This document shows, piece after piece, positions 1 to 1,048 of a stretch of DNA of 1,048 nt (the stretch's first letter is position 1; each line of letters starts with the position of its first letter). The stretch comes from Naegleria gruberi (taxonomy: Eukaryota): the NCBI GenBank assembly GCA_000004985.1, contig GG739597.1; one strand, 5' to 3'. The notes under the pieces were generated by a model. It did not search any database, had not been told where the DNA came from, and worked only from the letters and a program-made list of their open reading frames with translations. Both the position numbers and the translations under genes were made by a program.

Positions 1-743
1 TTGTCGTATAGCTCCAATGAAGTGAGAGAATTCAAAAAAGGTGCTTTCGTTAAAACAGTGCATCCAGTATCGCCAATCCTGTTAAAAGAAAGATCCAATT
101 CTTTCAGTTTAGTTAACGGAAGTGAGCAAAGGACTTCTAGTCCTTTGTGCGTTAATACGTTGTATCTGTATGTAAACTTTCTTAATCCTCTCAATTGGTT
201 TGCATTATTCTGAGATAGAATACTAATACCTAAACTTCCCAATTTGCTATACGAAAGATCCAATACCTGTAGAGCTGTAAAGTTTACAATCGGAATGGAT
301 AGTTTGTAATGATGTAAATCAAAACCCTTCACACAAAATTCTCTGGCAGAATTAAATCTTCCTTCCTTACAACACAATAAGAATGACTGATTCCTTTGAG
401 TGTCAACATTCAAATTCGTTTGAATTATCAATTGATTGAAATTATTCACAGAATTATACCAAGCCTTACAAACCAAGAAAGCCACCCGAAAAAGCCATTG
501 GCATGGAAAGAATGTAAACACTTCATTAGTGATAATATCCAGAGGAATATGCGTCATCATCATGATTATTTTGTTATTATTTTCATCATCAACATGATTA
601 ATTATTGTTGTTGAATTTAATCCGATAATAGTAGGAGGAGGTGCTTGCTGGAGTTGTTGTTCTCTTGGAGGAGGCTCCTCTATTACTGATTGTTGCTTCT
701 TTCTTTTCGGAAGAGCAGAATGTCCATTACTCAATCTTTTCAT
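1..743 (-). CDS. F-box / leucine-rich-repeat protein, N-terminal 247 codons; 3' end runs past window position 1. Likely SCF ubiquitin-ligase substrate receptor.
   Basis: Hand translation of the minus strand gives one uninterrupted frame from ATG (plus 741-743 = 'cat') to position 3, with 2 nt left over. Upstream in the same frame there are stops at TGA (780-782) and TAA (783-785), so this ATG is the first available start. The start context is A-rich (gaaaaaaATGaaa). Translation: MKRLSNGHSALPKRKKQQSVIEEPPPREQQLQQAPPPTIIGLNSTTIINHVDDENNNKIIMMMTHIPLDIITNEVFTFFPCQWLFRVAFLVCKAWYNSVNNFNQLIIQTNLNVDTQRNQSFLLCCKEGRFNSAREFCVKGFDLHHYKLSIPIVNFTALQVLDLSYSKLGSLGISILSQNNANQLRGLRKFTYRYNVLTHKGLEVLCSLPLTKLKELDLSFNRIGDTGCTVLTKAPFLNSLTSLELYD. 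It contains a recognisable F-box consensus and LRR consensus repeats. The other two minus-strand frames are broken by stops. Confidence 0.8.
   Translation of the reverse strand, partial: MKRLSNGHSALPKRKKQQSVIEEPPPREQQLQQAPPPTIIGLNSTTIINHVDDENNNKIIMMMTHIPLDIITNEVFTFFPCQWLFRVAFLVCKAWYNSVNNFNQLIIQTNLNVDTQRNQSFLLCCKEGRFNSAREFCVKGFDLHHYKLSIPIVNFTALQVLDLSYSKLGSLGISILSQNNANQLRGLRKFTYRYNVLTHKGLEVLCSLPLTKLKELDLSFNRIGDTGCTVLTKAPFLNSLTSLELYD
3..281 (-). other. Region coding for ribonuclease-inhibitor-type leucine-rich repeats (at least 4 repeats, residues ~155-247; truncated by the window edge)
   Basis: Repeats read directly from the translation: FTALQVLDLSYSKLGSLGISILSQ, LRGLRKFTYRYNVLTHKGLEVLCSL, LTKLKELDLSFNRIGDTGCTVLTKA and PFLNSLTSLELYD. 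These fit LxxLxxLxLxxNxIGDxGxxxLxxA. The 2 leftover nucleotides 'aa' at positions 2-1 would begin the Asn or Lys codon expected at the consensus N position. Confidence 0.65.
435..551 (-). other. F-box motif (protein residues ~65-103) within the minus-strand CDS
   Basis: The segment HIPLDIITNEVFTFFPCQWLFRVAFLVCKAWYNSVNNFN matches the F-box pattern LPxEIlxxIfxxLxxxdLxxxxxVCKxWxxLxxd. It has the hallmark I-P, the hydrophobic spacing and the V-C-K-x-W core. Confidence 0.7.
553..593 (-). repeat. Short trinucleotide (CAT/ATC) repeat tracts inside the CDS, encoding the low-complexity peptide NHVDDENNNKIIMMMTH
   Basis: The plus strand shows catcatcat (555-563) and catcatc (584-590) flanking att/tat repeats. 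On the minus strand these give ATG ATG ATG (MMM), GAT GAT (DD) and AAT AAT AAC (NNN), immediately N-terminal of the F-box. Confidence 0.3.
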
Positions 744-860
744 TTTTTTCAGGAAATTGTAAAACTCTTCAATTTGACATCATTAAGTTGACTTTTGATA
801 TTGGGCCCTTTCAATTTACAGGAGTTGAGCAATATAGTACTCCAGATAATAAAGATAAAA
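744..860 (-). promoter_or_regulatory. Putative core promoter and 5' leader of the F-box/LRR gene, with a TATA-like element (tatatt, plus 831-836) and an A-rich translation start context (744-752)
   Basis: This is the only space available between the 3'-end signals of the upstream gene and the ATG at 743. On the minus strand TATATT lies ~90 nt upstream of the ATG. The sequence gaaaaaaATG places A at -3 and -1 to -6, the preferred eukaryotic/yeast start context. No Shine-Dalgarno-like sequence is present. Confidence 0.3.
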
Positions 861-880
861 TTTTTTTATTTGATATAAAA
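861..880 (-). terminator. Putative mRNA 3'-end formation signals for the upstream gene: a TATAT-containing element followed by AATAAAAAAA
   Basis: The minus strand reads ttttatatca (880-871) then aataaaaaaa (870-861), beginning ~40 nt after the TAA at 919-921. This matches the yeast-type arrangement of a UA-rich efficiency element plus an A-rich/AAUAAA positioning element. It also matches a canonical AAUAAA polyadenylation signal. Confidence 0.4.
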
Positions 881-918
881 GTTCAATTTTCAAAATATTT
901 AATTAATCCTTCAATTGC

Positions 919-1048
919 TTAATAGTAGCAGTCCATTCTTTCCAAATGGTGAACCTTAGCAATTTGATTGTTTTCAACGGTGTGAATATCAATGGTCATA
1001 ATCTTGAATTGCTTTGAACCATCACATTCAATTCCCATGAAATTGCCC
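919..1048 (-). CDS. 3' end of an upstream minus-strand gene (last 42 codons plus TAA stop; 5' part lies beyond position 1048). Product unidentified.
   Basis: The minus-strand frame entering at 1047 reads GNFMGIECDGSKQFKIMTIDIHTVENNQIAKVHHLERMDCYY, then TAA (plus 919-921 = 'tta'). The other two minus frames in this stretch stop almost immediately (GQFHGN* and ...SRL*). The composition and codon choice resemble the downstream F-box gene. The stop is followed by 3'-end signals. It is shorter than the ORF-track threshold, which is why it was not listed. Confidence 0.5.
   Translation of the reverse strand, partial: GNFMGIECDGSKQFKIMTIDIHTVENNQIAKVHHLERMDCYY

What the first reader, a model, noticed from the sequence alone, without database searches (positions are those of the whole stretch)
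1..743. Main gene is on the minus strand and absent from the ORF track: an F-box + LRR protein
The only long coherent reading frame in the window is on the minus strand (247 codons, open to the edge). Its product carries two independent, textbook motifs in the expected N-to-C order for SCF substrate receptors: an F-box (…LVCKAWYNSV…) and then LRRs. All three plus-strand ORFs offered by the track overlap it in antisense and have no recognisable features. Annotating from the track alone would miss the real gene and produce three false ones.
Basis: partly seen in the sequence, partly recalled or inferred. Interest (0 to 1): 0.55.

Follow-up and report, generated by a model that had tools for sequence, protein, structure and literature searches.

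The report
Naegleria F-box plus LRR gene
The window carries the first 247 codons of an ordinary nuclear gene from a Naegleria amoeba, encoding a divergent F-box followed by leucine-rich repeats (a probable ubiquitin-ligase substrate receptor). It was missing from the ORF list only because that list omits reading frames that run off the window edge.

Summary
On the minus strand, an ATG at 741-743 opens a 247-codon frame that runs to the left edge. The stop-to-stop stretch is 259 codons, against at most 170 in 2000 shuffles.

The product is 93% identical, over all 247 residues, to the N. gruberi "predicted protein" XP_002671581 (323 aa). The window is therefore eukaryotic (Naegleria), and about 76 codons are missing.

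- **LRRs:** solid. Pfam LRR_6 scores 32.7 bits (cut-off 23.4), ribonuclease inhibitor matches at E=1.3e-10, and AlphaFold pLDDT is 82-95.
- **F-box:** real but divergent.
  - It fails Pfam's cut-off (13.6-16.3 bits against 24.3).
  - A four-sequence Naegleria profile matches 16 canonical F-boxes by hhalign at 96% probability, E about 4e-9. The best of 200 column shuffles reached 14.5%.
  - Six of its nine PDB hits are F-box domains aligned in register.
  - UniRef names the N. fowleri and N. lovaniensis homologs "F-box domain-containing".
  - The structural test was inconclusive.
- **Plus-strand ORFs:** the three start with TTG or GTG, have no Pfam hits, and are of chance length.

Verdict: an ordinary FBXL-like gene, a new member of a known kind, of low interest. 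In passing, the upstream neighbour is the tail of a SnoaL-like gene with bacterial-looking relatives and an apparent 1-nt frameshift.

The parts
3..743 (-). Partial CDS of 247 codons, cut by the left edge of the window, encoding an F-box + LRR protein. About 76 codons plus the stop are missing, judged from the 323-aa ortholog.
   Evidence: Translation. 93% identity over 100% of the query to N. gruberi XP_002671581 / D2VWH2. Shuffle test.
741..743 (-). Start codon ATG: the first ATG after the in-frame stop at 780-782, preceded by an A-rich context.
   Evidence: Same start as the N. gruberi model.
564..743 (-). N-terminal low-complexity, probably disordered region (residues 1-60), fast-evolving. 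Contains the basic cluster PKRKK (696-710), which looks like a nuclear localisation signal (inference only).
   Evidence: 13 of the 17 differences from the N. gruberi ortholog fall here, including two in-frame indels. AlphaFold pLDDT 28-44. PKRKK coordinates checked.
438..554 (-). Divergent F-box (residues 64-102, THIPLDIITNEVFTFFPCQWLFRVAFLVCKAWYNSVNNF), the presumed Skp1-binding module.
   Evidence: hhalign of the Naegleria profile against 16 canonical F-boxes: 96% probability, E 2.5e-9 to 5.9e-9, 37 columns. Window sequence alone: 85%, E 6e-6. Best of 200 column shuffles: 14.5%. PDB profile hits FBXO42, FBXO22, Skp2 and TIR1, aligned in register. Pfam F-box-like below threshold at 13.6-16.3 bits. 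Coordinates checked.
363..437 (-). Linker (residues 103-127) with family-invariant F121, C125, G128, R129. Probably the first, irregular turns of the LRR solenoid.
   Evidence: Invariant columns in the four-sequence alignment. In the N. lovaniensis homolog the equivalent region folds as beta-alpha units with pLDDT 76-90. No differences from N. gruberi here.
3..362 (-). Ribonuclease-inhibitor-type leucine-rich repeats (residues 128-247): one irregular unit, three complete units (158-186, 187-212, 213-239) and the first 8 residues of a fourth. The best Pfam LRR_6 stretch lies at 57-113.
   Evidence: LRR_6 at 32.7 bits, above 23.4. Ribonuclease inhibitor 1dfj_I at E=1.3e-10. AlphaFold pLDDT 82-95 for residues 160-247 with alternating strand and helix. 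Foldseek hits to NLRP1, RipG4 and RNase inhibitor. Coordinates checked.
744..918 (.). AT-rich spacer (about 25% GC) between the neighbour's stop and the ATG. Presumed 5'UTR/promoter of the F-box gene and 3'UTR of the neighbour.
   Evidence: Composition. No Rfam family reaches its threshold.
919..1047 (-). 3' end (42 codons plus stop) of the upstream neighbour, a SnoaL-like (NTF2-fold) protein. Its conserved C-terminus continues in another frame to a stop at 903-905.
1..213 (+). Listed ORF (70 aa, TTG start), antisense to the LRR region. Not a gene.
   Evidence: No Pfam hit. Length within the shuffle expectation.
396..614 (+). Listed ORF (72 aa, TTG start), antisense to the F-box region. Not a gene.
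   Evidence: No Pfam hit. Length within the shuffle expectation.
641..922 (+). Listed ORF (93 aa, GTG start), antisense to the N-terminus and running across the spacer. Not a gene.
   Evidence: No Pfam hit. Length within the shuffle expectation, whose 95th percentile is 100 codons.

Best explanation
The window comes from the nuclear genome of a Naegleria amoeba close to, but not identical with, the sequenced N. gruberi strain. Its minus strand carries the intron-free 5' three-quarters of a protein-coding gene. The product has four parts: a disordered basic N-terminus, a divergent F-box of about 40 residues, a short conserved linker, and a horseshoe of ribonuclease-inhibitor-type leucine-rich repeats. 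Inferred mechanism: the F-box docks onto Skp1 of an SCF (Skp1-Cul1-Rbx1) ubiquitin ligase, the concave LRR surface binds a substrate that is still unknown, and the substrate is ubiquitinated. What is shown here: the reading frame, the orthology, the LRR domain, the homology of the N-terminal motif to F-boxes, and stronger conservation of the F-box and LRR than of the N-terminus. What is inferred: Skp1 binding, ligase function and the substrate.
For: Frame and start codon. Organism and orthology: P0001, N. gruberi XP_002671581, 93% identity, 100% coverage, in-frame indels only. LRR: Pfam LRR_6 above its cut-off; RNase inhibitor at E=1.3e-10; a confident AlphaFold solenoid; Foldseek hits to LRR structures, including the SCF receptors FBXL2 and FBXL17 at lower rank. 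F-box: hhalign gives 96% probability and E about 4e-9 against an alignment in which Pfam validates 15 of 16 seeds. The result holds without the FBXO42 seed (96.0%). It also holds using only the N. fowleri and N. lovaniensis sequences (95.5%). Controls were clean: 200 column shuffles reached at most 14.5%, and the reversed profile gave 6%. Six of the 9 PDB hits of the F-box-only profile are F-box domains aligned in register at their N-termini. UniRef names the N. fowleri and N. lovaniensis homologs 'F-box domain-containing protein'. Family-invariant residues I66, F76, W83, A88, V91, C92 and W95 fall on the canonical LP...I/F...L...VCKxW positions. Constraint: compared with N. gruberi, 13 of 17 differences lie in residues 1-60 and only 4 in the 187 residues of F-box, linker and LRR (Fisher p=3.6e-6).
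Against: Pfam F-box-like is below its gathering cut-off in every family member: 13.6-19.1 bits against 24.3. PF00646 gives no hit for the window protein. The N. gruberi ortholog gives no F-box hit at all at E<=10. A single-sequence phmmer search of the F-box region against the PDB finds no F-box protein. AlphaFold gives the F-box region only pLDDT 35-55 in both models, with two long helices rather than a clear three-helix bundle. The motif carries single-residue insertions relative to canonical F-boxes. The LRRs resemble RI/NLR-type repeats more than the cysteine-containing type of classical FBXL proteins. There is no expression or interaction evidence.
Confidence: 0.8

Rival explanations
1. 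The gene is real, but the N-terminal motif is not a functional F-box. The protein would then be a plain RI/NLR-type LRR protein with a helical N-terminal cap that merely resembles an F-box, and it would act without SCF.
For: Pfam F-box models are all below their cut-offs. There is no single-sequence PDB hit to an F-box. AlphaFold confidence in this region is low. The closest LRR folds are RNase inhibitor, NLRP and bacterial LRR effectors rather than FBXL proteins.
Against: Profile-profile homology stands at 96% with E about 4e-9 and clean controls, and it is reproduced with independent subsets of the family. F-box domains from four divergent F-box proteins are the main PDB hits and align in register. 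The motif sits exactly where F-boxes sit, N-terminal to the LRRs. Its core residues are invariant across three Naegleria species that share only about 35% identity overall.
Confidence: 0.13
2. The minus-strand frame is a decaying or unexpressed copy (a pseudogene or a divergent silent allele) of the N. gruberi gene.
For: The sequence is 7% diverged from the reference protein. The adjacent gene shows an apparent frameshift. No expression data were available.
Against: The frame is intact for 247 codons and all indels are in-frame. Substitutions avoid the F-box, linker and LRR (4 in 187 residues) and pile up in the disordered N-terminus (13 in 60). That is the pattern of purifying selection, not of decay.
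Confidence: 0.04
3. One of the three plus-strand ORFs (1-213, 396-614, 641-922) is the real gene, and the minus-strand frame is incidental.
For: They are the only ORFs the mechanical list reports at 60 aa or more.
Against: They start with TTG or GTG in a eukaryotic genome. They have no Pfam hits even at E<=10. At 70-95 open codons they lie inside the shuffle distribution, which has a mean of 70 and a 95th percentile of 100. The minus frame has a 504-bit ortholog.
Confidence: 0.01

Closest known systems
N. gruberi predicted protein XP_002671581.1 / EFC38837.1 / UniProt D2VWH2 (NAEGRDRAFT_73379), 323 aa
   Same: Ortholog or allelic variant: 93% identity over all 247 residues, the same start codon, and the same order of F-box, linker and LRRs.
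   Different: 17 differences, 13 of them in the first 60 residues, including 1-codon and 4-codon in-frame indels. The reference protein is named only 'predicted protein' and gives no F-box hit in Pfam.
Naegleria homologs: N. fowleri FDP41_011348 (XP_044567131, UniProt A0A6A5C9Q7) and N. lovaniensis C9374_007907 (XP_044546021, UniProt A0AA88GG44), which UniRef names 'F-box domain-containing protein'
   Same: Same architecture and the same invariant F-box and linker residues. Both are intron-free genes. Together with the N. gruberi ortholog P0001, they were the only genuine relatives of the F-box+linker region among 1.84 billion representative proteins.
   Different: Only 35-37% identical in the F-box+linker region. 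Their N-terminal lengths and repeat numbers differ, and their gene neighbours differ, so there is no visible synteny.
FBXL-class SCF substrate receptors (Skp2, FBXL2, FBXL17, TIR1/COI1)
   Same: An N-terminal F-box is followed directly by an LRR solenoid. The F-box profile aligns to Skp2 and TIR1. The LRR fold matches FBXL2-SKP1 (6o60_C, E=2.2e-8) and FBXL17.
   Different: The F-box is more divergent, falling below Pfam's threshold and carrying single-residue insertions. The repeats are 26-29 residues long with the N-x-I-G-D-x-G signature of ribonuclease-inhibitor/NLR-type LRRs. RNase inhibitor and NLRPs outrank the FBXL proteins.
Ribonuclease inhibitor / NLR-type LRR domains, and bacterial LRR effectors with similar repeats (Ralstonia RipG4 'GALA', Legionella LegL1)
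   Same: These are the best sequence and fold matches of the repeat region: 1dfj_I at E=1.3e-10, 9j7j at E=2.4e-11 by Foldseek on the homolog model, and 4xa9.
   Different: Only the repeat domain is shared. RNase inhibitor and the NLR LRR domains have no F-box, and nothing here suggests RNase inhibition or NACHT-type signalling.

Membership tests
F-box protein family (SCF substrate receptors) | An F-box domain of about 40-50 residues, homologous to known F-boxes and detectable by profile comparison | tested here: met
   hhalign of the four-sequence Naegleria profile against 16 canonical F-boxes: 96% probability, E 2.5e-9 to 5.9e-9. Window sequence alone: 85%, E 6e-6. 200 column shuffles reached at most 14.5%; the reversed profile gave 6%. 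15 of 16 seeds were Pfam-validated. Six of 9 PDB profile hits are F-boxes aligned in register.
F-box protein family (SCF substrate receptors) | Score above the curated Pfam cut-off for PF00646 or PF12937.
   PF12937 scores 13.6 bits on the whole protein and 16.3 bits on the isolated region, against a cut-off of 24.3. PF00646 gives no hit. The N. gruberi ortholog gives no hit. The N. lovaniensis homolog scores 19.1 bits.
F-box protein family (SCF substrate receptors) | Canonical core positions: L/I-P at the start of helix 1, hydrophobic positions in helices 1-2, and V-C-K/R-x-W in helix 3 | tested here: met
   I66-P67, V74/F76, W83-L84, A88 and V91-C92-K93-x-W95 are present. I66, F76, W83, A88, V91, C92 and W95 are invariant in all four family members.
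F-box protein family (SCF substrate receptors) | Three-helix F-box fold | tested here: inconclusive
   AlphaFold predicts helices at residues 68-75 and 82-99 in the window protein, and at 33-45 and 47-66 in the N. lovaniensis homolog. pLDDT there is only 35-55, from alignments of 4-6 sequences.
F-box protein family (SCF substrate receptors) | Binds Skp1 and assembles into an SCF ligase | not testable with these tools
   Needs a binding experiment or a multimer prediction. That Naegleria has Skp1 and cullin rests on general knowledge of eukaryotes and was not checked here.
FBXL subclass (F-box + LRR) | LRR domain C-terminal to the F-box | tested here: met
   LRR_6 at 32.7 bits, above 23.4. RNase inhibitor at E=1.3e-10 over residues 155-233. 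Solenoid with pLDDT 82-95.
FBXL subclass (F-box + LRR) | Cysteine-containing (about 26-residue) LRR type, as in Skp2 and FBXL2 | tested here: inconclusive
   Repeat lengths are 29, 26 and 27 residues. The best matches are RI/NLR-type, with FBXL2 at rank 28 and FBXL17 at rank 45 in Foldseek. Pfam LRR_6 does not separate the two types.
RNI-like (ribonuclease-inhibitor-type) LRR superfamily | Repeated beta-strand/alpha-helix units with the LxxLxLxxNxIGxxG pattern, matching RI by sequence and fold | tested here: met
   Five in-register alignments to porcine RI. Alternating strand and helix in both models. Foldseek finds RNase inhibitor at E=1.2e-10 on the homolog model.

The most novel reading that the evidence does not exclude
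This could be a Naegleria-restricted, single-copy and fast-diverging receptor (about 35% identity between species, with no detectable relatives outside the genus). It would couple an NLR/RNase-inhibitor-type LRR sensor to SCF ubiquitination. Possible roles include sensing intracellular bacteria such as Legionella, or belonging to the kind of host gene from which bacterial F-box/LRR effectors (GALA/LegL-like) were captured.
Probability: 0.05. Interest if true: 0.5.

Novelty: new member of a known kind. Interest (0 to 1): 0.15.

Why it matters
It matters little biologically. F-box/LRR receptors are among the commonest eukaryotic protein architectures. A 93%-identical ortholog is already deposited, and two homologs are already auto-labelled as F-box proteins. 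The useful points are practical:

1. The window is eukaryotic, so a bacterial-code ORF list that drops edge-running frames reports only three spurious antisense ORFs here.
2. The N. gruberi entry D2VWH2, now a 'predicted protein', can be annotated as an F-box/LRR protein.
3. The F-box in this small Naegleria family falls below Pfam's threshold, so domain censuses that rely on gathering cut-offs will undercount F-box proteins in Heterolobosea.

Tried and rejected
- **Single-sequence PDB search of the F-box region:** only a phage protein at E=1.2. Uninformative.
- **PDB search with a profile that included the first LRR:** swamped by LRR hits. Redone with an F-box-only profile.
- **Word-index search with alignment A2:** returned nothing at E<=10, although P0001 must match. 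Treated as a tool limitation, not as evidence.
- **Exhaustive phmmer hit P0002 (1592 aa, E=2.3e-10):** a pure ankyrin-repeat protein. Rejected as an artefact of summing over repeats.
- **Metagenome scan:** 12 loci, all matching only the LRR part at 29-41% identity. No ortholog DNA, so no dN/dS and no extension of the contig past position 1.
- **Look-up of the N. gruberi gene's DNA:** not on record.
- **Two AlphaFold runs:** neither gave a confident F-box. I did not pad the alignment with canonical F-boxes, because that would have made the test circular.
- **Rfam:** one sub-threshold snoRNA match at 22.8 bits against a gathering score of 101. Chance.
- **Synteny with N. fowleri and N. lovaniensis:** the neighbours differ. 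No support either way.
- **Literature searches on Naegleria with F-box or Skp1:** nothing specific to this family.
- **A bacterial origin for the window** (for example an endosymbiont that captured the gene): considered because of the SnoaL-like neighbour. Rejected as the main reading because of the 93% identity to a gene on a 297-kb N. gruberi scaffold. The composition (33% GC coding, 25% GC spacer) is also, from general knowledge, consistent with Naegleria.

Full report
**1. The observation**

The window is 1048 nt and AT-rich: about 33% GC across 1-750 and about 25% GC in 751-975. The reverse complement of 3-743 reads as 247 sense codons starting at an ATG (741-743) and is cut by the left edge of the window. 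An in-frame TAA lies upstream at 780-782, and 741-743 is the first ATG after it. The stop-to-stop open stretch is 259 codons. In 2000 shuffles of the window, the longest open stretch in any of the six frames averaged 70 codons, with a 95th percentile of 100 and a maximum of 170. The frame is therefore far beyond chance.

The three ORFs of 60 aa or more in the mechanical list are all on the plus strand: 1-213, 396-614 and 641-922, with TTG, TTG and GTG starts. The minus-strand ORF is absent for a trivial reason. The lister says it does not report ORFs that run off an end of the source.

**2. Whose gene it is**

A search of 5.8 billion proteins returned one hit: the N. gruberi 'predicted protein' of 323 aa (XP_002671581 / EFC38837 / UniProt D2VWH2, NAEGRDRAFT_73379). 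It scores 504 bits, with 93% identity over 100% of the query. The start codon is the same, and the two indels are of one and four codons, both in-frame.

The window is therefore a eukaryotic nuclear sequence from a Naegleria close to, but not identical with, the reference strain. About 76 codons of the gene lie beyond position 1. The alignment is colinear, so there is no intron in this part. The N. fowleri and N. lovaniensis homologs are also single-exon genes.

Of the 17 differences from the reference, 13 lie in residues 1-60. Three lie in residues 61-105, none in the linker, and one in the 120 LRR residues (Fisher p=3.6e-6). The folded part is under stronger constraint than the N-terminus, which argues against a pseudogene.

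**3. The LRR half**

This is solid.

- Pfam LRR_6 scores 32.7 bits against a cut-off of 23.4. The full-length ortholog scores 42 bits.
- phmmer against PDB sequences gives porcine ribonuclease inhibitor at E=1.3e-10. Residues 155-233 align in register to five successive RI repeat pairs.
- AlphaFold, even with a four-sequence alignment, gives pLDDT 82-95 for residues 160-247, with alternating strand and helix.
- Foldseek finds NLRP1-LRR, RipG4-LRR, LegL1 and RNase inhibitor.
- A model of the complete N. lovaniensis homolog (pLDDT 76.9) shows the solenoid starting right after the F-box region. It matches RipG4 (2.4e-11), LegL1, RNase inhibitor and NLRPs. FBXL2-SKP1 comes at rank 28 (2.2e-8) and FBXL17 at rank 45.

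The repeats in the window are 29, 26 and 27 residues long and carry the N-x-I-G-D-x-G signature. They are of the RI/NLR type rather than the classical cysteine-containing FBXL type.

**4. The F-box half**

Against it:
- Pfam F-box-like (PF12937) scores only 13.6 bits (E=0.059) on the whole protein and 16.3 bits (E=0.0083) on the isolated 71-residue region. The cut-off is 24.3.
- PF00646 gives nothing, and the N. gruberi ortholog shows no F-box hit even at E<=10.
- A single-sequence search of the region against the PDB finds no F-box.
- Both AlphaFold models leave the region at pLDDT 35-55.

For it:
- An exhaustive phmmer search of residues 58-160 against 1.84 billion representative proteins found only three genuine relatives, one each from N. 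gruberi, N. fowleri and N. lovaniensis (35-37% identity for the last two). It also found one spurious ankyrin protein.
- UniRef names the N. fowleri and N. lovaniensis proteins 'F-box domain-containing protein'.
- In the four-sequence alignment, I66, F76, W83, A88, V91, C92 and W95 are invariant. These are the canonical LP / hydrophobic / VCKxW positions.
- A 53-column profile of this region, searched against 177,635 PDB sequences, gave nine hits at E<=10. Six are F-box domains aligned in register near their N-termini: FBXO42 (E=0.021), FBXO22 twice, Skp2 twice and TIR1.
- I then aligned 16 canonical F-box domains.
- hhalign of the Naegleria profile against this alignment gives 95.9-96.2% probability and E 2.5e-9 to 5.9e-9 over 37 columns.
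- Removing the FBXO42 seed leaves 96.0%. Using only the N. fowleri and N. lovaniensis sequences gives 95.5%, and the window sequence alone gives 85% (E=6e-6).
- In 200 column shuffles the highest probability was 14.5% and the lowest E 0.0019. The reversed profile gives 6%.

I conclude that residues 64-102 (window 438-554) are a genuine but divergent F-box with single-residue insertions. Its fold has not been confirmed structurally.

**5. Mechanism**

By analogy with Skp2, FBXL2 and TIR1 (established knowledge of SCF ligases), the F-box should dock on Skp1 and the LRR concave face should recruit a substrate for ubiquitination by Cul1-Rbx1. This step is inferred. No tool here can test Skp1 binding, and the substrate is unknown. 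The N-terminal 60 residues are low-complexity and contain PKRKK (696-710), which may be a nuclear localisation signal. That is inference only.

**6. The plus-strand ORFs**

All three start with codons that do not initiate translation in eukaryotic nuclear genes. None has a Pfam hit at E<=10. Their open stretches of 70-95 codons lie within the shuffle distribution. They are antisense shadows of the real gene and, for the third, of the AT-rich spacer.

**7. The surroundings**

A second minus-strand coding tail occupies 919-1047. It is 81% and 72% identical over 36 residues to two short SnoaL-family proteins (PF07366), at E=1.9e-10 and 1.3e-8. One of them sits on a 44-49% GC contig next to an AraC-type regulator and a glyoxalase gene, which is a bacterial context.

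The similarity stops exactly at ...HLE. It resumes in the neighbouring frame as EWTATIKQLKD*, ending at 903-905. Deleting one A from GGAAAGAATGG (933-943) raises the alignment score from 155 to 185. This looks like a 1-nt frameshift, either a sequencing error or a real lesion. No N. gruberi protein was retrieved for this tail.

**8. Comparison, novelty and verdict**

The gene belongs to the F-box/LRR class of SCF receptors. It has an unusually divergent F-box and RI-type repeats, and it sits in a small family seen so far only in Naegleria. Its ortholog is already deposited (unnamed) and its homologs are already auto-labelled. It is a new member of a known kind, and the finding is essentially a correct annotation call.

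Interest is low (0.15). The caveat is that the specific test it proposed, a Pfam F-box hit, fails, and the F-box needed profile-profile evidence.

Noticed in passing
window 919-1047 (-): This is the 3' end of an upstream neighbour gene encoding a SnoaL-like (PF07366) protein. Its only database relatives (81% and 72% identity over 36 aa) are short proteins, one of them on a 44-49% GC contig flanked by AraC-regulator and glyoxalase genes, which is a bacterial context. It is a possible horizontally acquired gene in Naegleria. No N. gruberi protein was retrieved for it.
   Followed up: partly
window 903-943 (-): There is an apparent 1-nt frameshift in that neighbour. Similarity to the SnoaL relatives ends at ...HLE in one frame and resumes as EWTATIKQLKD* in the next frame, with a stop at 903-905. 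Removing one A from GGAAAGAATGG (933-943) restores a continuous alignment, raising the score from 155 to 185. It is either a sequencing error in an A-run or a real lesion.
   Followed up: partly
window 564-743 (-), residues 1-60: The window is not the reference N. gruberi sequence. 13 of the 17 protein differences, including 1-codon and 4-codon in-frame indels, sit in the disordered N-terminus, while F-box, linker and LRR are 98% identical. This points to another strain or species of the N. gruberi complex, or a divergent haplotype.
   Followed up: partly
window 363-437 (-), residues 103-127: A family-specific conserved linker lies between the F-box and the first regular LRR (S-F-x-x-x-C-x-x-G-R; F121, C125, G128 and R129 invariant). 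In the N. lovaniensis model it folds as the first beta-alpha turns of the solenoid.
   Followed up: partly
window 696-710 (-): A basic cluster, PKRKK (residues 12-16), is conserved in the N. gruberi ortholog. It resembles a monopartite nuclear localisation signal. This is inference only.
   Followed up: no
window 681-764 (+): A sub-threshold Rfam match to a Drosophila C/D-box snoRNA family scores 22.8 bits against a gathering score of 101, E=0.15. It spans the start codon region and is most likely chance.
   Followed up: no
P0002 and alignment A2: Two tool cautions. A 1592-aa ankyrin-repeat protein scored E=2.3e-10 against the F-box+linker query by summing six repeat stretches, which is a false positive. 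The word-index search with alignment A2 returned no hit at E<=10, although the 97%-identical P0001 must match.
   Followed up: yes
L013 4001-4864 and L014 4001-5134: The N. lovaniensis and N. fowleri homologs are single-exon genes whose neighbours differ from each other and from the window. Their upstream genes are on the opposite strand (an RNase H-domain gene in N. fowleri, an unannotated one in N. lovaniensis). The family shows no conserved synteny.
   Followed up: partly
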